Origin: Candidatus Poribacteria bacterium | GTDB taxonomy: Bacteria; Poribacteria; WGA-4E; WGA-3G | Assembly (NCBI GenBank): GCA_012270875.1 | Contig: JAAXHI010000454.1 | Span: 827-36,903 of the forward strand | Direction of reading: 5' to 3' | Length of the DNA stretch: 36,077 nt | Shown here: positions 627 through 34,300 of the stretch, piece after piece | Position numbering within the stretch: the stretch's first letter is position 1 | Layout of the letters: the number at the start of each line of letters is the position of its first letter | Notes under the pieces: model-generated | The model's input: the letters and a program-made list of their open reading frames with translations, nothing else | The model's database searches: none | What the model was told of the DNA's origin: nothing | Translations under genes and position numbers: made by a program

Positions 627-3600
627 ATGAAACAAGAAAACGATGCTCAGTTAATCGACGATATCTTGTCTGGTGACACCACCGCATTTAACATTTTGGT
701 TGAAAAGTACCAAAAGAGTGTCCACGCGCTTGTCTGGCGAAAAATCGGTGATTTTCATTACGCTGAAGAAATTACACAAGACACCTTCCTACAGGCATAT
801 AAAAAACTTTCGACGCTCAAGAATCCGAATCTATTCGCTGGATGGCTGTATGTCATTGCAAATCGGCTCAGTTTCAAGTGGCTACGAGAGCAAAAACCTG
901 TTCCACAGTCGTTGGAGACTATACCTGTGAACGAGGTAGAAGCATCCTCTTATACGCGTTATGTATCCGAGCAGCGGGATATAAACACAACCGAGAATCG
1001 CCGCGAACTCGTCCAAAAACTTCTCGAAAAACTCCCCGATAGCGAACGCACGGTTGTGACACTTTACTATCTCAGCGAAATGACGACGAAGGAGATCGGC
1101 AAATTCTTGGGGGTCTCGGTGCACACGATTACGAGTCGGCTCCAGCGAGCAAGAAAGCGTTTACAGCGGGACGAAGAACGCTTGGTTCAGGAGGTGCTCG
1201 GTGGTGTACATGTATCGGCGCGTCTCAGCGAGAATATCATGCGAGAAGTCGGAAAGATAGAAACGACATCGCCACCGGTTAGCAAACCGTTGCTACCGTG
1301 GGCGGCTTTTGGTGCAGCTGCGGTCTTAATTGCCTTGCTGCTCGGCACAAGCAACCGATACCTTGCGCGCTTTCAGAAACCGTATAGTTTCGAGGCACAA
1401 TCTGAACCTACTATCGAAATTATTGATACACTTGTTACACTTGATATTGACGCAAAACCGGATGTTCGGAATCAGATTGGACAGGCTGCGTTCCCCGGTA
1501 AAAGCAACAGTACGGGTTTACAGACCTCTGAAACGTCGCTGGCAGCTACAGTTGGAGTGGATGCTGCAAAGTTTTCTACTTCTCGGTGGAGGCAGGTATC
1601 TGGTCCTCAACAGGGTCCCGCCTATGGCATCTTTACTACACCTGAAGGGACGCTCCACGTCTCTACACAGACAGGTATTTACAGATTACCAACGGGAGAA
1701 ACTGCGTGGGCGCGCATCAATGCCAATCGACCAATTAGCTGGGGCTATATGCCAATGGCAGCATATAGGGATACTCTCTATAGTGTCTCTACTAATGAAA
1801 TCTTCACTTCGAGCGACGATGGCGAGACGTGGCACGTCTTTTGCCCGCGACCCAGCGGACGCACTGTTGGATTGGTAGTAACCGATGCGCCGCAATCCAC
1901 CCGCTCACGAACAGCTGTTACAATGTATCTCGCCCTCCGAGATAAAGGCGTTTTCCAATCTACGGATGCTGGCACCGAGTGGAATTTGCTTAACGAAGGA
2001 TTAACAAACAAACGCATTTACAGAATCGCTGCGATTGAAAACACGGTATTTGTTGGGACAAACGAAGGACTCTACCGTCTCAACGCAGGTGTTTGGGAGG
2101 AATTATCGGTAGACCCTTCTAAAACTGCCCAATCCTTTGAGAACTTTGGAGACAAGACACCTGCTAACACAGACAGCGGTGTCTATCGTCTTAGCTCAGG
2201 TATTTGGGAACAGGTGCCAATAGAATTTGTTAATGCTATTCATTGCTTGACAGCCTTTGAGAACAATCTTTATGTTGGCATGGGACCGGATCTGTCTATG
2301 TGGGCGGGATCGACGAAATCGGAATTAGCGGAATTAGGCGTAATAGTGAATGTGAACTCGGTACAAGGCAAAATTTTTCACTCAGCAGATTTGGGGAAAT
2401 CATGGACTGAGATAACGCCTCAGGATAAACCGCTCTTTTTTACAGTCCTAACCGGTATAAAACTTTTGGTGGTGGGTGAGACGCTCCTCGCGCGAGGAAT
2501 CGAACAATTCCGGTCAACAGACGCGGGGCGGACTTGGACGCAACTGGACACTGCCTCTGGTCTGTCTCCACTTGATTCCCGACGAATAGTCGCGGCGGAT
2601 GAAAGGGTTTTTTACACAATTGGCGGAAACGGTGTTTATCGCACAACGGATGCTGGCGACTCATGGCACCTGTTTATGGATGGCATCATGGGGACAGGGA
2701 TCCGAAGTCTGATAGCATTCAATAACAGGCTTTGTGCGTATACCGGCAGCGACATCGTGCAGTCAACCGACGGTGGCGAATCGTGGGAAAAAATTCCGGT
2801 TGATGCTGGCGATTCCTTCATGTTATCTTATGGTTCAAAATTAAGGGTTAGCGATGGTAATCTTTATGGCATTGCATCTGAAGCGAGAAACCTTCGTATT
2901 TTCGGTCTATCAGGGGATGGTAATACCCTCGTTCTAACACAAAAAAGCCCTAATCTTGATGAAGAAACGCTTTCCACCGAGTCGTGGAAAACTCTTGCAG
3001 CGGCAGAACGGATCCGTTTACCTGATGACCTCGAAGAGAACCCTGCGTTGACAAAAACGTTGCGGAGTATGATGACCGTTGCAAGGGTCAGTGGATTTGC
3101 AGTCAGTGGTGGGACATTCTACGTCGAGTACCTGCGGCGGCTTTTCAAGTGGAAACTCGGCGACCTGGAATGGACGGATACTGGATTAATAGACCTTACG
3201 CAAAAATCCGCCTCGAGTCAGGGAGGCTATGGGTTCAAGTTAGCCGCATCCGGAGAAACCGTCTACGTCGGGAAGCGGGATGGTAAGTTATTCCAATCAT
3301 TTGACGGTGGAGACAGTTGGAGAGACATCACGCTGATCCTTCCACTTCGTTTCACGTATTTCAAGGAGATAGTTTTTGTCGGACCAACGGTTTATGTCGC
3401 AACAGATACAGGTGTTTTGGCTTCACAGAACGGGGAACACTGGCGCGTGCTGACCGATGAAATGGGGCAGCGTCCCGTTATAGACAAGTTCGCTGTAGAT
3501 GGCACCACGGTTTATGGTGCTGGCGATGCGGGTGTCTATCGTTTAGGGAACCGTGGCAAGTGGGAGCAGGTTTCGTCAAGCGTCCCGGGTAAAGTTATCT

Positions 3601-3704
3601 CTCTCGCCATCAATAACAACAGACTTTATGTTGTTACCTCACAGCGTGGGTTATTTCACATCTCGCTTGATGAGAAATTGCACAATGTCTCAACCAATGA
3701 ATAG
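627..3704 (+). CDS. ECF sigma factor fused through a TM helix to an extracytoplasmic Asp-box/BNR beta-propeller (divergent paralog)
   Basis: Region 2 AEEITQDTFLQAY..FAGWLYVIA; region 4 LPDSERTVVTLYY..EIGKFLGVSVHTITSRLQRAR; hydrophobic PWAAFGAAAVLIALLLG; repeated S-x-D-x-G-x-[TS]-W motifs. Confidence 0.92.
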   Translation: MKQENDAQLIDDILSGDTTAFNILVEKYQKSVHALVWRKIGDFHYAEEITQDTFLQAYKKLSTLKNPNLFAGWLYVIANRLSFKWLREQKPVPQSLETIPVNEVEASSYTRYVSEQRDINTTENRRELVQKLLEKLPDSERTVVTLYYLSEMTTKEIGKFLGVSVHTITSRLQRARKRLQRDEERLVQEVLGGVHVSARLSENIMREVGKIETTSPPVSKPLLPWAAFGAAAVLIALLLGTSNRYLARFQKPYSFEAQSEPTIEIIDTLVTLDIDAKPDVRNQIGQAAFPGKSNSTGLQTSETSLAATVGVDAAKFSTSRWRQVSGPQQGPAYGIFTTPEGTLHVSTQTGIYRLPTGETAWARINANRPISWGYMPMAAYRDTLYSVSTNEIFTSSDDGETWHVFCPRPSGRTVGLVVTDAPQSTRSRTAVTMYLALRDKGVFQSTDAGTEWNLLNEGLTNKRIYRIAAIENTVFVGTNEGLYRLNAGVWEELSVDPSKTAQSFENFGDKTPANTDSGVYRLSSGIWEQVPIEFVNAIHCLTAFENNLYVGMGPDLSMWAGSTKSELAELGVIVNVNSVQGKIFHSADLGKSWTEITPQDKPLFFTVLTGIKLLVVGETLLARGIEQFRSTDAGRTWTQLDTASGLSPLDSRRIVAADERVFYTIGGNGVYRTTDAGDSWHLFMDGIMGTGIRSLIAFNNRLCAYTGSDIVQSTDGGESWEKIPVDAGDSFMLSYGSKLRVSDGNLYGIASEARNLRIFGLSGDGNTLVLTQKSPNLDEETLSTESWKTLAAAERIRLPDDLEENPALTKTLRSMMTVARVSGFAVSGGTFYVEYLRRLFKWKLGDLEWTDTGLIDLTQKSASSQGGYGFKLAASGETVYVGKRDGKLFQSFDGGDSWRDITLILPLRFTYFKEIVFVGPTVYVATDTGVLASQNGEHWRVLTDEMGQRPVIDKFAVDGTTVYGAGDAGVYRLGNRGKWEQVSSSVPGKVISLAINNNRLYVVTSQRGLFHISLDEKLHNVSTNE

Positions 3705-3757: not shown

Positions 3758-4780
3758 ATGAAACGAATACTCGTTTTATGTGTGCTCAGTTTAATGTTGT
3801 TATCTATGGGCATTTGTGCTGTCTCAGCGAAAGCACCGACAACGCCGAAAATCTTGTTTACGTCCGCACGCGATGGCAACTATGAAGTCTATATCATGAA
3901 CCCGGATGGTAGTGAAAAGGTGAACTTGACCCAGCATCCCGATGGTGATAGCGGGGCTGTGTGGTCTCCGAGGGGTGATAAGATTCTCTTTGCCTCGAAT
4001 CGCCAAGGCACGGGTGTGCGAGACCTGTATCTGATGGATCCAGATGGGTCGAATATCCGCCGCGTCTTCAAGAAAAAAGTAAAGGGTTGGCGACATAGAC
4101 CGGCATGGTCTCCTGATGGCAAACAGTTTGCTTACAATTATACTGACTGGGACCGTCGAAAGTACGGTCACTATCTTGGGACGTTTGGCGAAGAAGATGC
4201 CGAACCTCTCCCGTATGGGAATGGCCCTGCGTGGTCTCCAGACGGTTCCGAAATCGCCTGTTCTGTATCTCATCAATTTGGGTCTCGACTGACCTTTATC
4301 AACGTCCGCACACGAGAGACGGAACAACCGCTTCTGGATAAAGTACTCTTGTGGCAATACCATCCATCTTGGTCTGCTGCGGGGGACAGGCTGGCGATTT
4401 CTGGGAACAAACATCCCATTCCTGACATCAAGGATAAGGAGCTGCACGAGGCGAGGGAGCTGCACAACGTATGGGGAAATAAAGGCACTATCTATATCGT
4501 CAACCGCGACGGCACAGGTCTGCGCCAACTTGTTGATGAAGCCGGTCCCAGAGCATTGTGGCCTGCGTTATCGCCGGACGGTTCGGAAGTGCTTTATACA
4601 CAGGAGATTAACGGACAGTGGCAAATTTTCAAGTTGGATATAAACAGTAGGGTTCGGACGCAGCTGACGCATATTTCACGGAATTTTGGTGGGGATTGGT
4701 TTGATCCGGCGTATACGTTGGCAGTAGCACCGCAGCCGCACTTGCTATCGACGACCTGGGGAGATGTCAAAAAACAGTAG
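3758..4780 (+). CDS. Secreted TolB-like (PD40) beta-propeller with TTTWG C-terminal motif, copy A
   Basis: Signal peptide, ILFTSARDGNYEVYIMNPDG, repeated PAWSPDG, C-terminus VAPQPHLLSTTWGDVKKQ. Confidence 0.9.
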   Translation: MKRILVLCVLSLMLLSMGICAVSAKAPTTPKILFTSARDGNYEVYIMNPDGSEKVNLTQHPDGDSGAVWSPRGDKILFASNRQGTGVRDLYLMDPDGSNIRRVFKKKVKGWRHRPAWSPDGKQFAYNYTDWDRRKYGHYLGTFGEEDAEPLPYGNGPAWSPDGSEIACSVSHQFGSRLTFINVRTRETEQPLLDKVLLWQYHPSWSAAGDRLAISGNKHPIPDIKDKELHEARELHNVWGNKGTIYIVNRDGTGLRQLVDEAGPRALWPALSPDGSEVLYTQEINGQWQIFKLDINSRVRTQLTHISRNFGGDWFDPAYTLAVAPQPHLLSTTWGDVKKQ

Positions 4781-4790
4781 AGGAACTCGT

Positions 4791-5837
4791 ATGAAAACGA
4801 TACAGTCGTTAGTTCTTGTTTTATTAATCCTGTCGGTGTTAAATGTGTGTGCTTTTCCGCTCTTTGCAAAAGCACCAATAACGCCGAAAATCTTGTTTAG
4901 TTCCAGTCGGGATGGTAATTGGGAGGTGTACATGATGAACCCAGACGGTTCTGAACAGGTGAACCTGACACAGCACCGCGCTGACGATATGAGTGCAGTG
5001 TGGTCTCCGAGGGGTGATAAGATCCTCTTCGTCTCAAATCGACAAGGCACGGGTGTGCGAGACCTGTATCTGATGGACCCTGATGGCTCCAATGTCCGCC
5101 GCGTTTTCAAGAGAAGAGCAAGGGGACAGAGAACTAATCCGACATGGTCTCCCGATGGCAAACAGTTTACTTACAGTTACGTGGACTGGGATCGTTGGGA
5201 GTTCGGTCTCTATCTTGGGACGTTTGGCGAAGAAGATGCCGAAGAACTCCCGGATGGGAATTCCCCGGATTGGTCGCCGGACGGCACCGAAATCGCCTTT
5301 TCTATATCGCATCAATTTGGGTCTCGCCTGACATTTATGGATGTCCGTACCCGAAAGCTGGAACAACCGCTCCCCGATAAAGCACTACAATGGCAACGCA
5401 ATCCATCCTGGTCTGCTGTGGGAGATAGACTTGCGATTACTGGGAACAGGCATCTGTTACCGGTCATCGACGGAAAGGAACTGGACGAGGCAAGGGCTCT
5501 GCACGAGGCATGGTCGGATAAACACACAGTCTTCATCGTCAATCGCGATGGCACGGGTCTCCGGCAACTGATTGAGGAAGACGGTTCCCGAGCAAGTGCT
5601 TGTGCGTTATCGCCGGACGGTTCAGAAGTGCTTTATACACAGGAGATTAACGGACAGCGCCAAATCTTCAAGATTGATGTGAACAGCGGTGTTCGGATAC
5701 AGTTGACGCATATTCCTGGTCCTTTTCCTCAAAAAACGAGTGCTGGGGGAGATTGGTTTGATCCGGCGTATGCGTTGTCGGTTTCACCACAACCGCACTT
5801 GCTAACAACGACCTGGGGAGAACTGAAAAAGGAGTAG
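4791..5837 (+). CDS. Secreted TolB-like (PD40) beta-propeller, copy B
   Basis: Start reassigned to ATG 4791 (GAGGA RBS, signal peptide MKTIQSLVLVLL). WSPDG repeats; tail VSPQPHLLTTTWGELKKE. Confidence 0.9.
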   Translation: MKTIQSLVLVLLILSVLNVCAFPLFAKAPITPKILFSSSRDGNWEVYMMNPDGSEQVNLTQHRADDMSAVWSPRGDKILFVSNRQGTGVRDLYLMDPDGSNVRRVFKRRARGQRTNPTWSPDGKQFTYSYVDWDRWEFGLYLGTFGEEDAEELPDGNSPDWSPDGTEIAFSISHQFGSRLTFMDVRTRKLEQPLPDKALQWQRNPSWSAVGDRLAITGNRHLLPVIDGKELDEARALHEAWSDKHTVFIVNRDGTGLRQLIEEDGSRASACALSPDGSEVLYTQEINGQRQIFKIDVNSGVRIQLTHIPGPFPQKTSAGGDWFDPAYALSVSPQPHLLTTTWGELKKE

Positions 5838-5857
5838 GATTTTTAGGGGAAACAAGT

Positions 5858-6871
5858 ATGAGATTAGTGTTGATTTTTTTTCTAATTCTCTTGATGTTGA
5901 TGTGTGGCGGTGTGTGTCAGGTTTTTGCCAAAGCACCGACAACGCCGAAAATTCTGTTCACGTCCAGCCGGGATGGCAATCGAGAGGTCTACATGATGAA
6001 TCCGGATGGCTCCGAGCAGATAAACTTAACACAGCATCCCGCCCGTGATGGTAGTGCCGTATGGTCTCCGACGGGTGATCAGATTCTCTTTGTCTCCGAT
6101 CGCGGCGGGGTGCGGGACCTGTATTTGATGGACGCGGATGGCACAAATGTTCGGCGCGTCTTTAAGAAAAAAATACGGGCATCGAGATATGCTGCGGCGT
6201 GGTCGCCTGATGGTAAACAGTTTGCTTACAATTACTTGGACTGGGACCGTCGAAAATCCGGTCTCTATCTTGGGACGTTTGGTGAGGAGGGTGTTGACCC
6301 CTTGCCGAATGGGAGTTCCCCTGCGTGGTCTCCCGATGGTTCAGAGATTGCTTGCTCGGTCGCACATGCATTGGGAGCACGACTGACATTTATCAACGTT
6401 GATACACGCGATAGGGAACAACCGCTCCCAGATAAAACTCTACAATGGCAAGCGGCTCCGTGCTGGTCTGCTGCAGGGGATAGACTTGCGATTTCTGGGA
6501 ACAAACATCCGATCCCTGCCATCTTGGATAGGGACCTACACGAGGCATGGAACGATAAAGACACGGTCTTCATCCTCAACCGCGACGGAACCGGTCTACG
6601 TCAACTTGTTGAGGAAGCCGGGCCCGGAGCAGGGCCTTCTGCATTATCGCCGGATGGCTCGGAAGTGCTTTATTCACAGGAGATTAACGGACAGACGCAA
6701 ATTTTCAAGTTGGATATAAACAGCGGTGTTCGGACACAGTTGACGCATATTGGGGGTGCTTTTCGTCAAGCGAATGTTGGTGGTGAGTGGTTTGATCCGG
6801 CGTATACGTTGCCGGTATCACCACAGCCGCATTTGCTCACTACGACATGGGGAGATGTTAAAAAACAATAG
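5858..6871 (+). CDS. Secreted TolB-like (PD40) beta-propeller, copy A'
   Basis: Signal peptide MRLVLIFFLILL, WSPDG repeats, tail VSPQPHLLTTTWGDVKKQ. Confidence 0.9.
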   Translation: MRLVLIFFLILLMLMCGGVCQVFAKAPTTPKILFTSSRDGNREVYMMNPDGSEQINLTQHPARDGSAVWSPTGDQILFVSDRGGVRDLYLMDADGTNVRRVFKKKIRASRYAAAWSPDGKQFAYNYLDWDRRKSGLYLGTFGEEGVDPLPNGSSPAWSPDGSEIACSVAHALGARLTFINVDTRDREQPLPDKTLQWQAAPCWSAAGDRLAISGNKHPIPAILDRDLHEAWNDKDTVFILNRDGTGLRQLVEEAGPGAGPSALSPDGSEVLYSQEINGQTQIFKLDINSGVRTQLTHIGGAFRQANVGGEWFDPAYTLPVSPQPHLLTTTWGDVKKQ

Positions 6872-6881
6872 AGGAACTCCT

Positions 6882-7922
6882 ATGAAAACGATACAGTCGT
6901 TAGTTTTTGTCCTATTGCTCCTGTTGGTGCTGAATGTTAGCACCTTTCCGCTTTTTGCTGAGGTACCGACGATGCCGAAAATTTTGTTTACGTCCAGTCG
7001 GGATGGCAATCGTGAGATCTACATGATGAACCCAGACGGTTCTGAACAGGTGAACCTGACACAGCACCGCGCCGAAGATATGTTTGCTGTGTGGTCTCCG
7101 AGGGGTGATAAGATTCTCTTCGTCTCGAATCGCCAAGGCACGGGTGTGCGAGACCTATATCTGATGGACCCTGATGGCTCCAATGTCCGGCGCGTCTTCA
7201 AGAGAAAAGCAAAGGGTCGGAGAGAAAAGCCTGCATGGTCTACCGATGGCAAACAGTTTGTTTATAACTACACGGACTGGGATCGTGGAGAGTTCGAGTT
7301 CTATCTTGGGACGTTTGGCGAGGAAGATGCCGAACGCCTTCCGTATGGGAATTCCGCTGAATGGTCTCCTAACGGTACCGAAATCGCCTATTCTATATCT
7401 CATCAATTCGGAGCTCGCCTCACATTTATGGATGTCCAGACACGAAAACTGGAACAACCGCTGCCCGATAAAGCACTACAATGGCAACGCAATCCATCCT
7501 GGTCTGCTTCGGGAGATAGACTTGCGATTACTGGGAACAGGCATCTGTTACCGGTCATCGACGGAAAGGAACTGGATGAGGCAAGGGCTCTGCACAAGGC
7601 ATGGAACGATAAATACACAGTCTTCATCGTCAATCGCGACGGCACCGGCCTCCAGCAACTGATTGAGGAAGACGGGCCCGCGGCACGTGTTTCTGCGTTA
7701 TCGCCGGACGGTTCAGAGGTGCTTTATACACAGGAAATTAATGGACGTTACCAAATCTTCAAGATTGATGTGAACAGCGGTGTTCGGACGCAGTTGACGC
7801 ATGGCGGTATCGTTATTCAAGCGAATACTGGCGGAGATTGGTTTGATCCGGCGTATGCGTTGTCGGTTTCACCACAGCCACACTTGCTAACAACGACCTG
7901 GGGAGATGTGAAACAGAAGTAG
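6882..7922 (+). CDS. Secreted TolB-like (PD40) beta-propeller, copy B'
   Basis: Start reassigned to ATG 6882 (GAGGA RBS, MKTIQSLVFVLL). Very similar to 4791-5837 along its length. Confidence 0.9.
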   Translation: MKTIQSLVFVLLLLLVLNVSTFPLFAEVPTMPKILFTSSRDGNREIYMMNPDGSEQVNLTQHRAEDMFAVWSPRGDKILFVSNRQGTGVRDLYLMDPDGSNVRRVFKRKAKGRREKPAWSTDGKQFVYNYTDWDRGEFEFYLGTFGEEDAERLPYGNSAEWSPNGTEIAYSISHQFGARLTFMDVQTRKLEQPLPDKALQWQRNPSWSASGDRLAITGNRHLLPVIDGKELDEARALHKAWNDKYTVFIVNRDGTGLQQLIEEDGPAARVSALSPDGSEVLYTQEINGRYQIFKIDVNSGVRTQLTHGGIVIQANTGGDWFDPAYALSVSPQPHLLTTTWGDVKQK

Positions 7923-7942
7923 GATTTTTAGGGGAAATAAGT

Positions 7943-9944: not shown

Positions 9945-9997
9945 ACTAATGGTCCTCCTCGAAAAGAAACGTCCAACAATTCTGAAATTCATTTTTA

Positions 9998-10028
9998 TGC
10001 ACCAGTTTGACTTATAAGTCGCGTCACT
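9998..10028 (+). promoter_or_regulatory. Putative ECF-dependent (autoregulatory) promoter TGCACC-N18-CGTCACT
   Basis: Motif conserved upstream of six ECF genes. Bipartite layout with a CGT-containing -10 is typical of ECF promoters. Confidence 0.75.
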
Positions 10029-10074
10029 GGTGTTAATCCGAGATGACGAACGCTCCTTTCCCATGGGATAATTG

Positions 10075-13164: not shown

Positions 13165-13174
13165 TGTACCTATC

Positions 13175-25529: not shown

Positions 25530-27860
25530 ATGATTTGCGACGCTTTAGACAATATTCAATTCATGCCAAATGCTACACAGCGCGTAGGACGTGAAATGCT
25601 ATGTACCAAATCTACTAAACTGTTAGTGTCATGGACAATCGCTGCTTTGATGGTGATTGTGCTGCTGATGCAGACACATCAGGTCTTAGCCAACCAAGAG
25701 GACTATACCCGATGGGGATTACCTAAAGGTGCCAAAGCACGGATCGGGAAAGGTGTGTTCACTGATATGCAGCTATCACCGGATGGCACGCGTTTGGCGA
25801 TTGCGAGTTCCGCAGGTGTCTGGCTTTATGATGTCAGTACAGGGGATGAGATTGCGCTTATCACGGAGAATACGACTCTCATCGGACAGGTCGCCTTTTC
25901 TCCTGACAGTACAACGCTTGCGACTGCTGGTGGGGACAACAAATGTCAAATCTGGGATGTTGAAAGTCGGACACTTCTACTGACATTCAAGATGCCTGAT
26001 TATTGGATCAAGACATTGGCATTCATGGATGACGGAAAAACCCTCGTCGGCGAAGGGATAATTGACAAAATCTCACACCCTCTGTTGGGGGGTGGACCTT
26101 GGATGTGGGATGTTCCCAAGGTCTGGATGTGGGATATCCAGACTGGAAAGCAGTTAGATACTTTCACCACTGAACTGCCGAGATTCAATCCGATGAAAGA
26201 TGTGCGGTCCAGTGTCATGGTAAAGGCATTTGCCAATAACGATCGTGTTATATTTGCCTTTGAGAATAAAGACGGAACGATTAGCGTCAAAGATGGACGC
26301 ACTAACCGCGAAGTAGCTGTGCTTCCCAATCTTAATGACGAGGTAAAAGCGTTCGGTTTTTCACCAGATGGTAAAGGGGTTGCCATTGCGACTTCAAGGG
26401 ACGTACATCTCTGGGACCTTGAGACAGGAGAACAGATACTAACATTTCCAAAGCAGGTTGCAGATTTCTATGGAAATCCGTCTATACTGGCATTCTCAAA
26501 AGATGGAAAAACGCTTGCCGTTGCGGGTTTAGACGACATTGAGATATGGAATATGGATACGCATTCGCATGTTGCTACACTTAAAAATACAGATGGCGGT
26601 TTGTGGGAATTTGTGTTATCAAGGGACGGCGCAACCGTCATCACTATGAATCACCACGGCAGGGTAGATTTGTGGTCGGCACAGACCGGCAAACATGAAC
26701 GCACCTTGACGATAGGATATACGAATAGATTCTCCAAGTTGGCGTTCGCGCCCGATGGGAAAACGATTGCGAGTAGCACGGGTAGCAAAGTTCACCTGTG
26801 GGATACAAACACTCGGACTGAAAGATTGCGGATGCAACTGCCCGGACGCATTGAAAATGAAAAAAAACGGGTTGAACCGGATTTGCGAGCCGCTGTGCCG
26901 ATAGAACGTGGAAGTGAAATCATCGGCTTAGCGTTTTCTGAATATAACACACCGCTCGCTGCTGCCGCGTATAGCAAAACTCTCGTCGCTTTTACCGTTT
27001 CCGGCAAAGTTGAAATATGGGATGTCGCTACTGGAGAATATAGTGCCGATTATACCCTCGCGGACATGCCTCGTAAAGGGATGCCAGGGCTGTTAGCACC
27101 CGATTTGACTGCTGTGCCAACGCCTCGGACCCCGGGAATATATCACCTCTTCGCAACACCGTTTGAGAGATCAGGTCACGCCTTGTATGCAGCTGCCTTT
27201 TCACCAGATGGTGAAAAACTAACTGTTAAAAATCGGGACGACGTGATGGAGATATGGGATGTTCTGACCCGTAGACGCTTATGCACACTCCCAGATCGCT
27301 CTCCAAACAAGAGTGCCGCGTTGGCATCTACGTTGGCATTCACACCGGATGGCGAAGTGCTTGCGATTGGTGAAGGTGCGGATGTCCATCTGTCACATAC
27401 GGATACAGGTGAAACGTTTGCCATATTCAGCGTCTCTCAGGAGAAACCGAATGCGATAGATAAATTACAAGGATTGTTCGACTCGCAGCGTTTTGATGTA
27501 TCGGTCGGTGCCGTAGCATTAGCGCGCCCTGGAAAACTTCCGGCTGTTGCTGCGAGTGGAGGCAAGACAATTTATTTTTGGAACATCGCAAAGCGGGAAC
27601 CTATTACGCTCAAAGAACATACAAGTGAAGTCTGTAAACTGGCGTTCACACCCGACGGCACTGTTCTGGCAAGTGGTGATGTTGATGGGACAATTCACTT
27701 GTGGTCGCTGCCCGCAGGAGACAAAATTGCCACATTCAATCCGTATGTGAGTCCCGTTAGTCAGTTAGTTTTCTCACCTGATGGAAAAACTCTTGCAAGC
27801 ACAAACCTACATTCTCGTTTTGCTGGAACGATACTCCTTTGGGACGTTCCACCCAAGTAA
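25530..27860 (+). CDS. Membrane-anchored or secreted WD40 protein; sigma-less paralog of the ECF-WD40 fusions
   Basis: AAGGAGGG RBS before ATG 25530. N-terminus MICDALDNIQFMPNATQRVGREM..KLLVSWTIAALMVIVLLM aligns with the ECF linker + TM. EDYTRWGLPKGAKARIGKG then WD40 repeats. TGGTATAAT at 25460-25468. Confidence 0.88.
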   Translation: MICDALDNIQFMPNATQRVGREMLCTKSTKLLVSWTIAALMVIVLLMQTHQVLANQEDYTRWGLPKGAKARIGKGVFTDMQLSPDGTRLAIASSAGVWLYDVSTGDEIALITENTTLIGQVAFSPDSTTLATAGGDNKCQIWDVESRTLLLTFKMPDYWIKTLAFMDDGKTLVGEGIIDKISHPLLGGGPWMWDVPKVWMWDIQTGKQLDTFTTELPRFNPMKDVRSSVMVKAFANNDRVIFAFENKDGTISVKDGRTNREVAVLPNLNDEVKAFGFSPDGKGVAIATSRDVHLWDLETGEQILTFPKQVADFYGNPSILAFSKDGKTLAVAGLDDIEIWNMDTHSHVATLKNTDGGLWEFVLSRDGATVITMNHHGRVDLWSAQTGKHERTLTIGYTNRFSKLAFAPDGKTIASSTGSKVHLWDTNTRTERLRMQLPGRIENEKKRVEPDLRAAVPIERGSEIIGLAFSEYNTPLAAAAYSKTLVAFTVSGKVEIWDVATGEYSADYTLADMPRKGMPGLLAPDLTAVPTPRTPGIYHLFATPFERSGHALYAAAFSPDGEKLTVKNRDDVMEIWDVLTRRRLCTLPDRSPNKSAALASTLAFTPDGEVLAIGEGADVHLSHTDTGETFAIFSVSQEKPNAIDKLQGLFDSQRFDVSVGAVALARPGKLPAVAASGGKTIYFWNIAKREPITLKEHTSEVCKLAFTPDGTVLASGDVDGTIHLWSLPAGDKIATFNPYVSPVSQLVFSPDGKTLASTNLHSRFAGTILLWDVPPK

Positions 27861-28143: not shown

Positions 28144-29754
28144 ATGAAAAACGACGATACCCGACTGATTCAATGCGTCCTTGCCGGCGATGATACTGCT
28201 TTTGCTGAGCTTGTGAAAAAGTACCAGAAGCCGGTTCACGCGCTTGTGTGGCGGAAAGTTGGTGATTTCCACGTCGCCGAGGAAATTACACAGGACACCT
28301 TCCTGAAGGCATACCAGAAACTGACGACGCTCAAGGAGCCGCAGCGTTTTGTGAGTTGGCTTTATGTAATAGCCACGAACCGTTGCAAGGCATGGCTGCG
28401 TAGGAAACGTTTATGGATGCAGTCGTTGGATGCCACGAGTAGTAGGCAGTTGGAAAAGGCTACATATTCTGAATATGTCATTTCGGAGAACGAACGCGTA
28501 ACAGTAGAAACACAGCGCGAAGTCGTCAAAAAGCTGCTTGCGAAGTTACAGGAGAGTGAGCGGACAGTCATGACACTCCACTATTTCGGGGAGATGACGT
28601 GTGAAGATATTAGCAAGTTTTTGGGTGTATCGGTAGGTGCGATTAAGAGTCGGCTCAGGCGTGCGCGCCACCGCTTAAAGAAGGAGGAACCCATGATACG
28701 CGAGGCTTTAGAACATTTCCAAATCACACCGAATCTGACAGAGGATATCATGCGCGAGGTTTCGCGTCTGAAACCGATTGCGCCGTCTGGTAGCAAGCCG
28801 TTCGTGCCGTGGGCAATCGGCGTTTCTACGTTAGCAGTCATCCTTTTGATGTTAGGTGTCGGAAACCGTCAATACCTGTCGCGTTTCCAAAAATCGTATA
28901 GTTTTGATGCGACTTTAGAGATGAGCGTTGAACTCATTGATGCACCGATTGTGTTGAATCTTGAATCCAAACCTGATGTTCGGACGCAGCTCGGCAATGC
29001 TGCCACCCCCAGTAAAAACGACGGGTTCAGTCAACAACTCGATCAACCAGAACATACAACCCTATTTGCTGCCGCGCAGGTAGATCAAACTGAGAAACCT
29101 ACTGTTACTGATAAAGGTAATCGCTACATCATCCTTGAGACAAGCACCCATGAGGAAGGTGGAGAAGTTTTTGCGAGCGGAAGTTTTTCTTTTACGAGAA
29201 CAGGTGAGATTTTGACAGTTACAAAGGCTGGAACTACCGGGACCGGTAAAGGTGACGCAACCCCGATGTACGTGTTGATGAGTTATATTCTCAACCATAA
29301 TATTGACCTTTTCAAGTTCCCTTTGGTTATAGGAGATACTTGGACACAGAAAGGTCCCTGGGCCCCACACATACAGACGACCTTAGTGGGTTATGAAAAG
29401 GTAGAAGTTGCCGGAGGGACTTTCACGGACTGCCTTAAGCATGAAACGCTTTTTACAAACGCGAGGGTAGGTGCTGGCACGCGTTATTTGTGGTTTGCCA
29501 AAGGGGTTGGTGTCGTTAAAATGCGCTATGAACATTCCAACGGTGTCACCACTGAAGCAGAATTGCTTAACTACAATGTTCCGAAAGGCGAAGAATATCT
29601 CCCTTTGCAATACGGTAATATGTGGACCTACAGATTGCAAAACGAGTCTCAAGAAAAACCGATTATTGAAAAGTGCGAGGTTGTCGAAAATAGCGATCAG
29701 CCCTTAGATTCTGTCGATTCTTATTTTTTTCTCACGCTCCTCCAAAAGCTCTGA
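28144..29754 (+). CDS. ECF sigma factor-TM fusion, 5' part; appears to continue by a -1 frameshift at T7 (29724-29730) into the next ORF
   Basis: MKNDDTRLIQ start with GGAGA RBS, ECF regions 2 and 4, TM, then a domain with VEVAGGTFTDCLK..WFAKGVGVVK. Ends with a short tail after the T-run. Confidence 0.88.
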   Translation: MKNDDTRLIQCVLAGDDTAFAELVKKYQKPVHALVWRKVGDFHVAEEITQDTFLKAYQKLTTLKEPQRFVSWLYVIATNRCKAWLRRKRLWMQSLDATSSRQLEKATYSEYVISENERVTVETQREVVKKLLAKLQESERTVMTLHYFGEMTCEDISKFLGVSVGAIKSRLRRARHRLKKEEPMIREALEHFQITPNLTEDIMREVSRLKPIAPSGSKPFVPWAIGVSTLAVILLMLGVGNRQYLSRFQKSYSFDATLEMSVELIDAPIVLNLESKPDVRTQLGNAATPSKNDGFSQQLDQPEHTTLFAAAQVDQTEKPTVTDKGNRYIILETSTHEEGGEVFASGSFSFTRTGEILTVTKAGTTGTGKGDATPMYVLMSYILNHNIDLFKFPLVIGDTWTQKGPWAPHIQTTLVGYEKVEVAGGTFTDCLKHETLFTNARVGAGTRYLWFAKGVGVVKMRYEHSNGVTTEAELLNYNVPKGEEYLPLQYGNMWTYRLQNESQEKPIIEKCEVVENSDQPLDSVDSYFFLTLLQKL

Positions 29755-29825
29755 GGACTATACCTGATTTATCTGAAAAAGTTTCAATAATTATAGAGGA
29801 CATACGGATCGGTTTCAGTGAGGTA

Positions 29826-31064
29826 ATGATGGATGCTGATATTGCGTATACAAGTGTACCAATAGGCGACCTTAAATGGGTAGACGGCGGTAGAACCCTT
29901 GTTATCCCGTTGAGTCAACCCCTATTACCTTCAAAAACCTATAGGCTTATATTGGCGGAAGGCTATAGGAATATGGCAGGCGTTGTGTTCCCAGAATATA
30001 CGCTCACTTTTACAACCGAAGGTCCCGAACCGGTTACGCCTACTTTTGTGGACACCACGCCTGTCTATGTGGCAGATATTGAAGAATTGAACCTCTCAAA
30101 TGAACTGCTCTGCCGCGTTACCGTGAATCCGACAGTGGGTTTTAACTTCCCGTATTATCTGTTCATTCCACAAGGGATAAACTTGAACAAACCTGTTCAT
30201 CTGCTCGTGGAACCCTGCAACACAGGGGTGAGTCAGACTCGTAAAAGTCTTGATAGAAAGACAAAGGCTTTGGCTGAAGCATCTCATGCGACTGTCATCG
30301 CCAAAAGACTGGGAGTCCCGTTGCTCGTGCCTGTTTTTCCGAGACCCGGCGGAGATCAATGGCTCGTGCCTGTTTCTCCGAAACCCGGTAAAGATCAATG
30401 GCAAGCCTACACGCATGCCTTGGATAGAGACACCCTCCTGATTAGAGATGGCGACCTCAAGAGAATCGACCTGCAACTCATCAATATGATTGCGCATGCG
30501 CAAAGGCTCCTACGACACAATAATATGAAAGTGAATGAGAAGGTCTTTATGAACGGGTTTTCGGCTTCTGGGACGTTTGCAAATCGGTTTGCTATTTTAC
30601 ATCCAACAATTGTCCGAGCGGTTGCAACTGGCGGCATCAATAGCATCCCGACCTTTCCGACAGAGCGTTGGGATGATGTCACTATGCGGTATCCGGTTGG
30701 CATCGCGGATGTGAAAGAGATCGCTGATATTAAATTTGATGAAGAGGCGTATAAACGTGTCTCCCAATACATCTACATGGGAGCTTTGGATGACAATGAT
30801 ACTGTTTCGTATCGAGATGCCTACGATGTAGTGGATGCCGAGTTGGTCAAAAGCCTCATTGGAGCTGAAATGATGCCAGATCGATGGGACATGAGTCAGT
30901 CGATATACAGGGCACTTGAGATTCCTGCGCAGTTTGTTACATACGAAAATACTGGGCATCAAATCAAGAATGAGATGATAGATGATATTGTCGCTTTTTT
31001 CGAGGCAAACTCCGAGGATGAGATAGTTGAAATCGTCCCACATCAATATCCATCCGCTGAGTGA
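29826..31064 (+). CDS. Ig-like (Big_5-like) domain + alpha/beta-hydrolase-fold domain; probably the 3' part of the 28144 fusion
   Basis: Frame open from 29694: PPKALRTIP..IRIGFSEVM..WVDGGRTLVIPLSQPLLPSKTYRL..YTLTFTT. Nucleophile elbow GFSASG, Asp in GALDDND, His in NTGH. No signal peptide of its own. Confidence 0.8.
   Translation: MMDADIAYTSVPIGDLKWVDGGRTLVIPLSQPLLPSKTYRLILAEGYRNMAGVVFPEYTLTFTTEGPEPVTPTFVDTTPVYVADIEELNLSNELLCRVTVNPTVGFNFPYYLFIPQGINLNKPVHLLVEPCNTGVSQTRKSLDRKTKALAEASHATVIAKRLGVPLLVPVFPRPGGDQWLVPVSPKPGKDQWQAYTHALDRDTLLIRDGDLKRIDLQLINMIAHAQRLLRHNNMKVNEKVFMNGFSASGTFANRFAILHPTIVRAVATGGINSIPTFPTERWDDVTMRYPVGIADVKEIADIKFDEEAYKRVSQYIYMGALDDNDTVSYRDAYDVVDAELVKSLIGAEMMPDRWDMSQSIYRALEIPAQFVTYENTGHQIKNEMIDDIVAFFEANSEDEIVEIVPHQYPSAE
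30323..30402 (+). repeat. 39-bp in-frame tandem duplication
   Basis: Encodes LVPVFPRPGGDQW followed by LVPVSPKPGKDQW. Confidence 0.85.
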
Positions 31065-31164: not shown

Positions 31165-31203
31165 CACCTTTCCTCTTCTCTTTCCTTCACAATCCACTTT
31201 TTT

Positions 31204-31243: not shown

Positions 31244-31289
31244 TAGGTTGATATGTTATTAATCAACTACCGCTTTCTGGAGGCAGCTG

Positions 31290-34200
31290 ATGAAAAACAA
31301 CGATGTTGCACTTATTCAACGAGTTCTCGCTGGTGATGAAACCGCTTTTGCTGAACTGATAAAAAAATATCAAAAGCCAGTTCACACGTTGGCGTGGCGA
31401 AAAATCGGGGATTTTCATATCGCTGAGGACATCACCCAGGAGGTCTTCCTGAAAGCGTATCAGAGACTCCATATCCTGAAAGATCCGAACCAGTTTTCTG
31501 GATGGCTTTATGTGATTACGGCGAACTTATGTGCCACATGGCTCCGCAAAAAACGGATACAGACGCAACCGTTGGGGGACACAGAACCAACGATGATACA
31601 AGAAGATACTTATTCTCGACATGTTGTAGAAGAGCGAATGAAAACCACAGCGGAATCACAACGCGAAGTCGTCAAAAAGCTGCTGGCGAAGTTGAAAGAG
31701 AGTGAACGCACAGTGATGACGCTCCACTACCTTGGTGAGATGACGGTTGCAGAAATTAGCCGATTTTTAGGCGTATCGGCGAGTACCATTAAAAGTCGTT
31801 TGAGACGGGCACGAAACCGTTTAAAAGAGGAGGAGCCGATGATTAGAGAAGCACTTGAGCATTTCCAAATTACACCGAATCTTACAGAGAATATCATGCA
31901 AGAGATATCGCGGTTGAAACCGGTTGCACCGTCAGGCAGTAAGCCGTTAGTGCCGTGGGCAATGGCTGCTTCTACAGTAGCAATCGTCCTTTTGATGTTC
32001 GGCATGGGAAATCAGTATATGTCGCGTTTCCAAGAGCCGTATAGTTTCGACGCGCCATCAGAGATGACAGTTGAGCTCATTGAAGCACCCCTTGTGCTGA
32101 ACCTTGAGGTCTCCAAACCCGATATTCGGACGCAACTTGGGAGTGTTCGCACACCGAACGAGGGAAAGATCTCCAACCAGCAGCCTAACGACGTTTCGGC
32201 ATCGGCTGCAGAAGCCGAAGCAGATGAGAGAATTAAAAACTACGCGCATTGGAAGCTGCCCAAAGCCGCAAAAGCACGTTTCGGAAAAGGTGGGATTACC
32301 ACAATTCAGTTTTCACCGGATGGAACCCTACTCGCAGTGGGTAGTAATATCGGGGTATGGCTGTATGATGTGGCAACAGGTGAGGAGAAATTTTTGTTTG
32401 GTAGTGGAATGTGTGAAGCCCTCCAATTTTCACCTGATGGCCGTTTCCTTACTGCTTCTTCTGAGGAGACGCTCATCCAATTATGGGAGATCGCTACCGG
32501 GCGCGAAGTGCCGCTTATTGATTTGTACGGAGAAGCTTCCGTATTGCGATTCTCTTCAGATGGGAAAACGCTGATCGGTTTGTATAGTGATGGGCATGCT
32601 GCGATTACGCGATTGAATATTGAGAGCGGTAAAGGGAAAACAAAACACCTTAAAACTGGGTTATTCGGGATCGGTCTCTTGAGTTGGGAGGATTTTAGTG
32701 GTGTTTACGCGATGACGGGCGATAAAATCGCGATTGGCAAACCGGACGGGACGATTCAGTTATGGGACGTAGCAACCCGTAAAAAGTTATCGACGCTCAG
32801 AGGACACGTAGATTTGCCGCTTCAGCCGTTAGATAAACTTGTGCATCGCAAACGTCCGTTTAGCAGACGGATTTTAGCAGTGGCGTTTTCGCCGGATGGT
32901 ACCCGTCTCGCCAGTGGTGGGGCAGATAATACAGTCCGATTGTCGAATCTCACTGGCGATCGAGATTCGATGACGTTGCAGAAACATACTGGACCGGCAA
33001 ATGTGCTGGCGTTTTCACCCGATGGAAAAATGCTTGCCAGCGGCAGTACCGATAAAACAGTGCAATTGTGGGACACCGCCACTGGCGAACCCCTCCTGAC
33101 GCTCACCGGCCATATCAACGGTATTACGGCGTTAGCATTTTCACCCGACGGTAACCACTCGTAAGCGGGAGTACGGATGGCACAATCCGATTCTGGCAGA
33201 CAGCAACTGGGGCTCCAGCAGATACCCTTATTACTGGACACACACAATCCATAAAAGCGGCGACCTTCTTTCAAGATCGTAATAGGGGCGAGGTGACCTT
33301 GAAGAAACACCCAAGCAAAAACCCCCTACTGGTAAGTGCGGCGTTTAACGGTGAAATTACCTTTTGGGATGTGGACGCAGCGCAGCGTAGGGACGAGGTG
33401 ACCACGCCCCTACGCCAAAATAGTGGACATCGGGATTGGTACTTAGCTTTAGCGTTTTCACCGGATGGCACGAAACTCGTCAGTGCAGGGACAGACGGTA
33501 CGAAAGTTTTCGGTGGGTTCCCTACTGGATTCTCTATTATTACGAAGCCAGATAATCTAACTCGGTTGACGGATGTATCGACTGGAGCCGAACTTGCGAC
33601 GTTGCAGCGAGGAAGCAGCAAACTTATCTTTTCTCCTGACGATAGAACTAAAACGGTGGCGATTACTTCGAGAGGTGCCATTCGCTTATGGAATACGGAA
33701 ACAGGCGATGAATTGGTCATTCCGATTCATGATGACCTACCCCTCGGCTTTCACCACAATGTGCCAACGGTTTTGGCAGTGGCGTTTTCGCCAGATGGTA
33801 GATGGCTTGTGAGTGGAACTACAGAAGGGGAAATCCGAATGTGGGACGTTGCGACCGGTGAAGCTTTGACCGTCTTTTCAGAACTGACAGAACCGATGGA
33901 ACAAGAGCATCTGAGGCATATTTCGGCATTGGCGTTTTCACCGGACCGCGCCTTGCTCGCTGCGGGTACACCGACGCAACTCCATTTATGGGACGTGCGT
34001 ACCGGTCATAAACTTTTTTCGGTTAGCACTGTGTATACACGCGGTTGGCGGACATACCATGATTATCCAAAACCGTTGGTGTTTTCGCCGGATAGTGCAA
34101 TTCTCCTCAGTGGGCATGGGGGCGGGACAATCCAATTATGGGATGCCAAGACTGGAGACAGCATCGCTGCGCTTGATGGGCATACACAGCAAGTGGAGAC

Positions 34201-34300
34201 GTTGAAATTTTCGCCTGATGGGGAAATGTTGGTTAGCACGGCACAGGATGGCACAATCTTTTTGTGGGATTGGGATGAGGCTATCACCGAATTACGTTAA
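31290..34300 (+). pseudogene. ECF sigma factor-TM-WD40 fusion split by a 1-nt deletion near 33156 (ORF-track pieces 31290-33164 and 33293-34300)
   Basis: After FSPDGN the WD40 text continues in the other frame as LVSGSTDGTIRFWQTATG, colinear with LVSGGADGTLRFWNTETG of 19044. Restored length about 1003 aa, ending DGTIFLWDWDE like 19044. Confidence 0.85.
33385..33415. repeat. REP-like palindrome inside the coding frame
   Basis: GCGTAGGG-acgaggtgaccacgc-CCCTACGC, encoding RRDEVTTPLR. Related TAGGGGCGAGGTGACCT..CCCCTAC at 33283-33329. Confidence 0.75.

What the first reader, a model, noticed from the sequence alone, without database searches (positions are those of the whole stretch)
627..34300. 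Array of seven one-piece transmembrane ECF sigma factors with interchangeable extracytoplasmic sensors
Seen: seven genes share about 280 aa (sigma2, sigma4, linker, single TM, juxtamembrane motif) and then carry four unrelated C-terminal types: BNR propeller x3, WD40 x2, a duplicated 380-aa domain, and Ig + hydrolase. No conventional separate anti-sigma genes are adjacent. Known: ECFs are usually held by a co-encoded anti-sigma, and ECFs with membrane-anchored C-terminal extensions are described mainly in Planctomycetes. Inference: a receptor repertoire in which each sigma is tethered and released by regulated proteolysis, expanded by cassette duplication.
Basis: partly seen in the sequence, partly recalled or inferred. 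Interest (0 to 1): 0.85.

Follow-up and report, generated by a model that had tools for sequence, protein, structure and literature searches.

The report
Membrane-tethered ECF sigma factor array, Poribacteria
A sponge-symbiont-type bacterium (Candidatus Poribacteria) carries a tandem array of sigma factors, each fused through one membrane helix to a different outside domain; this is a large lineage-specific expansion of a design already described in Planctomycetes.

Summary
Seven + strand genes share a ~290-aa module (ECF sigma2-sigma4, a 40-aa linker, one TM helix, a conserved juxtamembrane motif). They then diverge into BNR propellers (3), WD40 (2), a duplicated ~375-aa domain (1), and a DUF3108-like + Ig + hydrolase-like tail (1).

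- Two genes (S6, S7) are each split by a frameshift.
- An eighth, sigma-less paralog lies at 25530-27860.

The organism is Candidatus Poribacteria. The array is part of a family:
- 32 full-module ORFs in this 81%-complete MAG.
- 7-63 matches per genome in the two closest genera, 1-5 in two sister families, and none in 7 more distant genomes of the phylum.
- Only 257 clusters among 1.84 billion representative proteins, carrying at least 13 kinds of outer domain.

Sensor type is nearly random on the module tree. Six of the seven genes carry an ECF-type promoter (GCAMC/GWRAC-N17-19-CGTCACT).

Most likely these are one-component, autoregulated, membrane-tethered sigma factors released by proteolysis. 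The release step is inferred, not shown.

ECFs with WD40 extensions (ECF57) and duplicated ECF cores with unrelated extensions are already described in Planctomycetes. I therefore rate this a new variant of a known kind, of moderate interest.

The parts
627..3704 (+). S1: ECF sigma - linker - TM - juxtamembrane motif - BNR/Sortilin-type propeller (1025 aa). Divergent member, 46-50% identical to the others in the module.
10072..13164 (+). S2: same module + BNR/Sortilin-type propeller (1029-1030 aa).
13367..16810 (+). S3: same module + two copies of a ~375-aa beta-rich domain without a family name (46% identical to each other) + a helical tail (1147 aa).
19044..21881 (+). S4: same module + WD40 propellers (945 aa).
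22335..25331 (+). S5: same module + BNR/Sortilin-type propeller (998 aa). Its module is nearest to that of its WD40 neighbour S4.
25530..27860 (+). T: sigma-less paralog. It starts at the Met that corresponds to 'PMIREAL' of the linker and has its own AAGGAGG ribosome-binding site. It then has the TM helix and WD40 repeats, but no juxtamembrane motif (776 aa).
28144..29754 (+). S6, first piece: same module + ~200-aa domain (weak DUF3108_like). The reading frame ends after a frameshift located between about 29707 and 29739.
29694..31064 (+). S6, second piece in another frame: Ig-like (Big_5 in the relatives' precomputed Pfam) + hydrolase-like domain. It is colinear with residues 539-968 of the intact 970-aa relative P0045.
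31290..33164 (+). S7, first piece: same module + WD40. The frame is broken near 33150-33160.
33155..34300 (+). S7, second piece: WD40 repeats, colinear with S4 residues 610-939.
9997..10028 (+). ECF-type promoter-like motif upstream of S2 (GCACC-N-GCGTCACT). The same bipartite motif ends at 13344 (S3), 18997 (S4), 22288 (S5), 28098 (S6) and 31242 (S7), 22-47 nt before each ATG.
3758..8962 (+). Five tandem paralogs of a secreted PD40 (TolB-like) beta-propeller protein directly downstream of S1 (54-nt gap). Possible co-transcribed targets, not tested.

Best explanation
Each gene encodes a one-component transmembrane signalling protein. An ECF (group 4) sigma factor sits in the cytoplasm. A conserved ~40-aa two-helix linker and one TM helix tether it to a variable extracytoplasmic domain that acts as the input. 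Tethering keeps the sigma domain away from RNA polymerase and promoters. A signal at the outer domain leads to cleavage in or near the conserved juxtamembrane segment, then to intramembrane cleavage by a site-2 protease. The freed sigma domain transcribes its own gene from an ECF-type promoter, and probably other genes. The family grew by tandem duplication, with exchange of the sensor part behind a constant ~290-aa adaptor.

Shown: the architecture, the family, its distribution, sensor shuffling and the promoter motif.
Inferred: topology, tether-based inhibition, proteolytic release and autoregulation.
For: Architecture:
- Sigma2 + sigma4 in all seven genes. TIGR02937 scored 97-110 bits against a cut-off of 42.9 in the three modules scanned, S1, S2 and S4.
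- One hydrophobic window (H 1.5-2.5) at ~218-243 in 32 of 32 full-module ORFs of the genome, with no second one.
- AF2 with 108 sequences: sigma2/sigma4 pLDDT >90, linker helices 182-192 and 198-208 (block means 68-84), TM helix 223-238 (50-58).
- No anti-sigma Pfam family and no Cys/His in the linker.

Constraint on the adaptor:
- Invariant or >=90% conserved positions in the linker, before the TM helix and in the RFQKPY motif, across 33 and 108 sequences.

Relatives of the sigma domain:
- The best solved matches are SigW, AlgU and RpoE.
- By my recall, not from any call here, these three are controlled by single-pass anti-sigmas that are degraded by regulated intramembrane proteolysis.

Proteases:
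- A full-length M50 site-2 protease (563-587-aa frames, E~1e-68) in 5 of 5 near-complete relatives.
- A small M50 and three S41 peptidases in this MAG.

Precedent:
- The IutY sigma/anti-sigma hybrid is released by Prc and RseP (passages of PMC8999054).

Autoregulation:
- GCGTCACT occurs 6 times in the window, each just upstream of S2-S7; 0 of 100 shuffles reach 6.
- The bipartite motif lies upstream of 14 of 31 full-module genes, against 4 of 3614 background ORFs.

Expansion and shuffling.
Against: - No cleavage, expression or topology data. Two RNA runs gave 0 reads, which is no test.
- The positive-inside bias is weak: 2.4 against 1.7 K/R in the 15 residues on either side of the TM helix.
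- AF2 gives the juxtamembrane segment no structure (pLDDT <50), so its role is a guess.
- Site-2 and S41 proteases are near-universal. The controls ring in 14 of 14 and 10 of 14 genomes, so their presence says little.
- 17 of 31 family genes lack the strict promoter motif, including S1.
- Two of the seven genes are frameshifted. No indel was listed in contigs of two DNA runs, so part of the array may be decaying.
- Dozens of paralogs with near-identical promoters raise an unsolved specificity problem.
Confidence: 0.55

Rival explanations
1. The proteins are never cleaved. They act while tethered, like ToxR/CadC-type membrane-bound transcription factors, or are switched by a conformational change passed through the helix and the conserved linker.
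For: - The cytoplasmic linker is strongly conserved and predicted as two helices, more than a passive tether would need.
- No site-1 protease is encoded in the array.
- For ECF57, activation through protein interaction rather than proteolysis has been suggested (passage of PMC8999054).
Against: - A ~40-aa tether leaves little room for a sigma factor to enter RNA polymerase holoenzyme at the membrane (inference).
- The nearest sigma relatives are SigW, AlgU and RpoE, which by my recall are RIP-controlled.
- The only characterised sigma/TM hybrid in the review passages I read is released by RIP.
Confidence: 0.15
2. Each gene of the S2-S7 clade gives two products. A Shine-Dalgarno-like AAGGAGGAACCG-ATG sits inside the reading frame at the sigma4/linker junction. 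It starts a sigma-less membrane protein (linker-TM-sensor) that works in trans as an anti-sigma-like partner or decoy. The fused form is only one state of a sigma/anti-sigma pair.
For: - The internal GGAGG-N5-6-ATG is present in all six of S2-S7 and in close paralogs.
- The sigma-less gene T starts at exactly this Met with its own AAGGAGG.
- Sigma-less full-length WD40 proteins in the database start at the same Met (P0167 801 aa, P0209 889 aa).
Against: - The motif is encoded by K-(K/R)-E-E-P-M and may simply be inherited within one young clade.
- The other clade, including S1, has Leu, Val or Ile instead of Met and GAA GAA codons.
- Sigma-less database entries may be gene calls made on broken genes.
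- The sigma-versus-linker complex job gave no verdict (listed under Tried and rejected).
Confidence: 0.1
3. The array is mostly evolutionary debris or a pool of surface repeat proteins. The outer 'eukaryote-like' repeat domains (WD40, BNR, LRR, Kelch) are the functional part, for example for host contact. The sigma domains are inactive passengers.
For: - Two of the seven genes are frameshifted and one copy has lost the sigma domain.
- No indel was listed in contigs of two DNA runs.
- WD40 and other repeats have been read as eukaryote-like proteins in Poribacteria (passages of PMC3909097).
Against: - The sigma domain is the best conserved part. Many positions are invariant across 108 representatives that are at most ~50% identical to each other overall.
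- Intact arrays are kept in many genomes of two genera.
- A specific ECF-type promoter is kept upstream.
Confidence: 0.05

Closest known systems
ECF57 (formerly ECF01-Gob), Planctomycetes
   Same: - An ECF core with a long C-terminal extension rich in WD40-like repeats, no anti-sigma partner, and several paralogs per genome. The average is 5.3 per planctomycetal genome (passages of PMC8999054 and PMC7826278).
- A TM helix after sigma4 is my recollection of Jogler et al. 2012, which I could not read.
   Different: - Different phylum. All named relatives of the module are Candidatus Poribacteria.
- WD40 is only one of at least 13 sensor kinds.
- ECF57 is described with two conserved cysteines linking sigma2 and sigma4. 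Here only one Cys (C81) is conserved.
- Match counts reach 63 per genome.
- Group HMMs were not available, so membership is open.
Recently duplicated planctomycetal ECFs with unrelated C-terminal extensions (Pinto and da Fonseca 2020, PMC7671368)
   Same: Highly conserved sigma2/sigma4 with C-terminal extensions of low identity and many different Pfam families. The core tree and the extension tree disagree (passages). The same incongruence is seen here.
   Different: - There, the conserved unit is the sigma core, and the authors propose insertion of a duplicated core into other genes.
- Here, the constant unit runs on through a linker, the TM helix and a juxtamembrane motif (~290 aa), and the genes stand in tandem arrays.
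IutY of Pseudomonas putida (ECF243), a sigma/anti-sigma hybrid
   Same: A single polypeptide with an ECF sigma, a membrane span and a periplasmic part. It is activated by Prc and RseP, and the truncated form is constitutively active (passage of PMC8999054). It is the best functional model for the release step proposed here.
   Different: IutY carries a FecR-type anti-sigma part and works with a TonB-dependent transducer. No FecR or other anti-sigma family was hit here.
ECF48/ECF52/ECF53 of Actinobacteria (e.g. SCO4117)
   Same: A sigma fused to a membrane-spanning extension with an outer (carbohydrate-binding) domain; predicted proteolytic activation (passage of PMC8999054).
   Different: Those carry a zinc-finger (ZAS-like) domain between sigma4 and the membrane. 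The linker here has no Cys or His and no zf-HC2 hit.
SigW-RsiW, AlgU-MucA and RpoE-RseA two-protein systems
   Same: - The closest solved sigma domains: phmmer E 1e-25 to 3e-20 and Foldseek E 6e-7 to 2e-6.
- The promoter logic, with AAC in the -35 element and CGT in the -10 element, is recalled as typical of ECFs.
   Different: There the anti-sigma is a separate protein with a full cytoplasmic anti-sigma domain. Here sigma and membrane part are one chain, and the cytoplasmic spacer is only ~40 aa.

Membership tests
ECF (group 4) sigma-70 family | Sigma2 and sigma4 domains only, with no sigma3 or sigma1 | tested here: met
   Sigma70_r2, Sigma70_r4_2 and Sigma70_ECF hits in all seven genes. TIGR02937 scored 97-110 bits against a cut-off of 42.9 for S1, S2 and S4. 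No equivalog-level NCBIfam model reached its cut-off.
ECFs with a membrane-spanning C-terminal regulatory extension (one-component ECFs) | An extension of more than 50 aa fused after sigma4 that contains a TM helix | tested here: met
   One hydrophobic window at ~218-243 in 32 of 32 ORFs. AF2 helix at 223-238, at low pLDDT. Extensions of 300-900 aa.
ECFs with a membrane-spanning C-terminal regulatory extension (one-component ECFs) | No co-encoded anti-sigma factor | tested here: met
   No anti-sigma Pfam family in 18 window ORFs at E<=0.01. Of the small ORFs listed in three intergenic stretches, only the DUF433/DUF5615 pair was scanned. An unrecognised kind of partner cannot be excluded.
ECF57 (ECF01-Gob) | Assignment by the ECF classification's group HMM | not testable with these tools
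   ECF group HMMs are not in any library offered. Supplementary Text S2 and Table S2 of PMC7826278 were closed.
ECF57 (ECF01-Gob) | Prevalence of WD40-like repeats in the extension | tested here: not met
   WD40 in 2 of 7 window genes (plus the sigma-less T), 7 of 32 in the genome, and 34 of 107 representatives.
ECF57 (ECF01-Gob) | Two conserved cysteines that could link sigma2 and sigma4 (as described in PMC8999054) | tested here: not met
   Only C81 is >=90% conserved in 33 and in 108 sequences. No conserved Cys in sigma4.
Sigma/anti-sigma hybrids of the FecI/FecR type (IutY, ECF243) | A FecR-type anti-sigma domain after sigma4 | tested here: not met
   No FecR hit in Pfam scans at E<=0.01.
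ZAS-fused ECFs (ECF48/52/53) | A zinc-finger anti-sigma domain between sigma4 and the TM helix | tested here: not met
   No zf-HC2 hit. The linker sequence has no Cys or His.
Substrates of regulated intramembrane proteolysis | Site-1 and site-2 cleavage that releases the cytoplasmic part | not testable with these tools
   Only the presence of M50 and S41 peptidases in the lineage could be checked.

The most novel reading that the evidence does not exclude
The ~120-aa linker-TM-juxtamembrane cassette is a lineage-specific 'plug-and-play' adaptor. It turns almost any periplasmic domain into the input of a sigma factor; domains seen include BNR, WD40, LRR, Kelch, LamG-like, thioredoxin-like, trypsin-like protease and transglutaminase-like. 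Dozens of such sensors per cell feed into closely similar promoters, giving a many-inputs, shared-output network. In one clade an internal ribosome-binding site also makes sigma-less decoy receptors from the same genes. Much of the 'eukaryote-like repeat protein' load of Poribacteria would then be transcriptional sensing, perhaps of the sponge host, rather than effector function.
Probability: 0.2. Interest if true: 0.75.

Novelty: new variant of a known kind. Interest (0 to 1): 0.5.

Why it matters
Poribacteria are dominant sponge symbionts (abstract of PMC3909097); that they remain uncultivated is my recall. If these proteins work as proposed, a genome of 5-6 Mb spends 30-60 genes on single-chain transmembrane sigma sensors. 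That would be one of the densest such repertoires I know of.

It would re-read part of the 'eukaryote-like' WD40, LRR and Kelch load of these symbionts as signal input. It would offer a natural series of one constant output module joined to many inputs, useful for asking how sensor domains are coupled to proteolytic release and how paralogous sigmas with similar promoters avoid or exploit cross-talk.

It would also extend the fused-ECF design beyond Planctomycetes, Actinobacteria and Pseudomonas.

Tried and rejected
- **Complex prediction, sigma domain (1-176) against linker (177-217):** no verdict (score 0.06, mark 0.32). No evidence either way.
- **ESM Atlas look-up of the adaptor:** best scores 0.83 and 0.75, below the level that means anything.
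- **Full-length AF2 of S3:** mean pLDDT 50.9, too poor for a fold search of the duplicated domain. The secondary-structure line shows a helix followed by many strands in each copy.
- **Fold search of the module model:** returned only sigma factors. Compact anti-sigma-bound forms matched at lower rmsd (9-13 A) than holoenzyme forms (~23-25 A). I give this no weight.
- **Sigma-70 promoter and terminator scans:** terminators not above shuffles; promoter-like sites at most about 2.6 sd above (37 against 23.0, sd 5.4). No use made of them.
- **RNA evidence:** no RNA holder listed. Two RNA runs with the same species label as the DNA run X2 gave 0 reads. No test of expression.
- **First two promoter scripts:** used a wrong spacing or register and were replaced.
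- **Regulon:** the strict motif also lies upstream of a TonB-dependent-receptor-like gene beside another array on C169 and of a 3196-aa TPR protein on C343. Shuffles give 2-5 strict hits genome-wide, so I claim no regulon.
- **Literature:** no paper in the library joins Poribacteria with ECF or sigma-70 factors of this kind. One search found only general WD40 counts. Jogler 2012 and Wiegand 2020 were not held. Supplements of the ECF classification, which may already list poribacterial ECFs or describe ECF57 in detail, were closed.
- **PF25852:** shown among the precomputed Pfam domains of relatives, but not in the Pfam copy at hand.
- **Assembly error as the cause of the two frameshifts:** no indel was listed in contigs of runs X2 and X6, and all 30 bins were covered. 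One or both runs may be the source of the MAG, and contigs hide rare variants.


Full report
**What is in the window**

The 36-kb window is part of contig C350 of a 5.74-Mb, 598-contig MAG with 47% G+C, 81% complete. It carries 20 ORFs of 220 aa or more, mostly on the + strand.

Seven of these begin with Sigma70_r2 and Sigma70_r4_2 domains. They share a module of about 290 residues:
- sigma2;
- a long sigma2-sigma4 connector;
- sigma4;
- a conserved linker (consensus EEPMIREALxxFQITPNLTENIMREIxRxKPxAPSxSKPxxPW);
- one hydrophobic helix;
- a conserved outer segment (LSRFQKPYSFDAxSEMTVELIxAPxVLNLExKPDxRTQxG).

Identity in the module is 64-76% among S2-S7 and 46-50% between S1 and the rest. At DNA level the module forms repeat families of six to seven copies. 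After a short Ser/Gly/Gln/Asn-rich spacer the proteins become unrelated:
- BNR/Sortilin/Ycf48-type propellers in S1, S2 and S5;
- WD40 in S4 and S7;
- two copies of a ~375-aa domain in S3, 46% identical (E 3e-108), with no Pfam or NCBIfam name;
- a weak DUF3108-like domain in S6.

**Corrections to the observation**

- The Ig + hydrolase part assigned to S6 lies in a different frame. One intact 970-aa relative (P0045) covers both pieces colinearly, at 64% identity over S6 and 73% over the second piece. S6 is therefore one gene split by a frameshift between about 29707 and 29739.
- S7 is split in the same way near 33150-33160. Its second piece aligns with S4 residues 610-939.
- Contigs from two DNA runs of two studies list no indel across 18900-34400, and every bin is covered. 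The breaks are therefore probably not peculiar to this assembly. One or both runs may be its source, though, and contigs hide minority variants.
- An eighth paralog, T (25530-27860), has no sigma domain. It starts with its own AAGGAGG site at the Met that corresponds to the 'PMIREAL' Met of the linker. It keeps the TM helix and continues straight into WD40 repeats.
- None of the 18 window ORFs scanned hit an anti-sigma family.

**Organism and family**

Relatives that carry a source name are all Candidatus Poribacteria.

A profile of the seven modules finds 32 ORFs with the full module in this MAG. It also finds about ten more with a closely related sigma part but another continuation; two of these carry AhpC/Redoxin domains.

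By C-terminus the 32 ORFs divide as follows:
- 18 BNR
- 7 WD40
- 2 S3-type
- 1 S6-type
- 1 Trypsin_2 + TPR
- 1 Kelch
- 2 with short C-terminal stubs (63 and 74 aa; one abuts a contig end)

The 120-aa linker-TM-juxtamembrane piece alone was searched in 61 genomes of the phylum:
- 50 of 61 genomes have a match.
- In the window's own family, 34 of 36 genomes match, with 7-63 matches each in the two main genera.
- In two sister families, 4 of 6 and 11 of 11 genomes match, with 1-5 matches each at much weaker E-values.
- In five more distant families, 0 of 7 genomes match.

Matches are not exact copy numbers. Several relatives show the same tandem arrangement, for example seven matches within 22 kb in G057 and nine within 37 kb in G055.

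Against 1.84 billion representative proteins the piece finds only 257 clusters at E<=0.001. In nearly all of the 150 listed it sits at residues ~176-300, that is, behind a sigma domain.

Of 107 such representatives:
- 38 have BNR-type tails and 34 have WD40-type tails;
- 8 have LRR;
- 4 hold the S3-type domain (two of them together with WD40);
- 4-5 have CarboxypepD_reg;
- single clusters carry Transglut_core, Redoxin/AhpC, Trypsin_2 + TPR, Peptidase_M16_C, Kelch, Reg_prop and Big_5 + hydrolase.

One further representative (P0257) has a long tail. In one search that tail matched records outside Poribacteria, while its N-terminal module matched Poribacteria only.

**Are the sensors interchangeable?**

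On a maximum-likelihood tree of 31 modules from this genome, sensor type needs 10 changes. Shuffled labels need 8-12, mean 11.3. Sensor type is thus almost uncorrelated with module history.

Neighbours pair despite different sensors: S4 (WD40) with S5 (BNR), support 92/85; and a WD40 and a BNR gene on C280, support 98/92. Two histories fit this: tandem duplication followed by replacement of the sensor, or gene conversion of the module between neighbours. I cannot tell these apart.

**Promoter**

Upstream of S2-S7, 22-47 nt before the ATG, lies a bipartite motif: (GCAAC, GCACC or GWRAC), 17-19 nt, then CGTCACT.
- The octamer GCGTCACT occurs six times in the window, only at these six places. None of 100 shuffles reaches six.
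- Genome-wide the bipartite pattern precedes 14 of 31 full-module genes. It precedes 0 of 9 genes with only the related sigma part, 0 of 15 other ECF-like genes, and 4 of 3614 background ORFs.
- Its AAC/CGT logic is, from my knowledge of ECF promoters, typical of the family and of autoregulation.
- S1 lacks it.

**Structure and mechanism**

AF2 on the first 300 residues of S2 with 108 diverse sequences gives mean pLDDT 72.7:
- sigma2 and sigma4 above 90;
- two linker helices (182-192, 198-208) with block means 68-84;
- a TM helix at 223-238 (50-58);
- no confident structure for the juxtamembrane segment.

The closest solved sigma domains are SigW, AlgU and RpoE. No classical anti-sigma domain fits in the 40-residue linker, which also lacks Cys and His.

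The proteases needed for release are present in the lineage but are almost universal:
- A full-length RseP-like M50 protease is present in 5 of 5 near-complete relatives.
- This 81%-complete MAG shows only a small 227-aa M50 with HEWGH and LDG motifs, plus three S41 peptidases.

I therefore favour tethering plus proteolytic release, as shown for IutY and proposed for ECF48/52/53 (passages of PMC8999054). Every step after the architecture is inference. The conserved RFQKPYSF segment about 10 residues outside the membrane is my candidate for the first cut or for protease recognition. This is a guess.

**An unexpected detail**

In the S2-S7 clade the codons for K-(K/R)-E-E-P-M at the sigma4/linker junction read AAGGAGGAACCG-ATG. 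That is a good ribosome-binding site followed by a start codon. T and two database WD40 proteins of 801 and 889 aa start exactly there. This could give sigma-less isoforms, or it could be inherited codon choice. The other clade lacks both the Met and the GAG codon.

**Comparison with what is known**

- ECFs with C-terminal extensions are the second most common regulatory type, found in 19 groups (passage of PMC7826278).
- ECF57, formerly ECF01-Gob, shows WD40-like repeats and averages 5.3 copies per planctomycetal genome.
- Pinto and da Fonseca described recently duplicated planctomycetal ECFs whose conserved cores carry unrelated extensions with many Pfam families. They proposed insertion of duplicated cores into other genes (passages of PMC7671368).

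The principle seen here is thus in print for another phylum. The differences are:
- the lineage, Poribacteria;
- the length of the constant unit, which includes linker, TM helix and a juxtamembrane motif found only in this order-level group;
- the scale, up to 63 matches per genome;
- the tandem arrays;
- the shared promoter;
- only one conserved cysteine, where ECF57 is described with two.

I found no paper linking Poribacteria to such sigma factors. Kamke et al. 2014 count WD40 among 'eukaryote-like' repeats without mention of sigma factors (passages). Membership in ECF57 or another group could not be tested, because group HMMs and the classification's supplements were unavailable.

**Verdict**

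It is a lineage-specific, very large expansion of one-component membrane-tethered ECF sigma factors with swapped sensor domains: a new variant of a known kind. The proteolytic release mechanism is plausible but untested. Interest is moderate (0.5).

Noticed in passing
window 3758-8962: Five tandem paralogs (~340 aa each, with signal peptide and PD40/TolB-like beta-propeller repeats) directly downstream of S1. At DNA level they form 3-5-copy repeat families of 63-88% identity.
   Followed up: partly
window 18321-18554 and 18568-18897: A DUF433 (E 3.5e-17) and DUF5615 (E 6e-10) gene pair sits between S3's neighbour and S4. By my recollection this pairing is typical of a toxin-antitoxin-like module.
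   Followed up: partly
window ~21959-22079, ~27878-28050 and 343-626: Short intergenic elements that recur across the MAG, with 29, 69 and 76 BLAST hits (up to 98% identity for the ~120-nt one). Read depth in two DNA runs spikes at two of these places (188-261x against ~25x). They look like MITE- or REP-like dispersed repeats.
   Followed up: partly
window 10600-10630 and the same place in S3-S7: An in-frame AAGGAGGAACCG-ATG (Shine-Dalgarno-like site plus Met) at the sigma4/linker junction in all six genes of the S2-S7 clade. It is absent from S1 and its clade. The sigma-less gene T starts at the equivalent Met.
   Followed up: partly
G000 contigs C231:38405-40330 and C156:4250-6439 (L039, L042): Further fused ECFs with a closely related sigma part but a different continuation, ending in AhpC-TSA/Redoxin (thioredoxin-like) domains. 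This is a second kind of fused ECF in the same genome.
   Followed up: partly
G000 contig C169:27511-27541 and downstream: The strict promoter motif also precedes a 921-aa protein whose sequence looks like a TonB-dependent receptor preceded by Ig-like repeats (my reading of the sequence; no Pfam scan). It lies next to another three-gene array of the family. Shuffles give 2-5 strict hits genome-wide, so this is only a lead.
   Followed up: no
window 16875-18239 and 9133-9813: A 454-aa probable lipoprotein with a weak LVIVD repeat hit, and a 226-aa protein with an N-terminal hydrophobic stretch and no family. Both lie inside the array and neither looks like an anti-sigma factor.
   Followed up: no
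G000 contig C227:13626-16052 (L043): One family member carries a Trypsin_2 (HtrA/DegP-like) protease domain plus TPR repeats as its outer part. This raises the possibility of a sensor that cuts itself or its paralogs.
   Followed up: no
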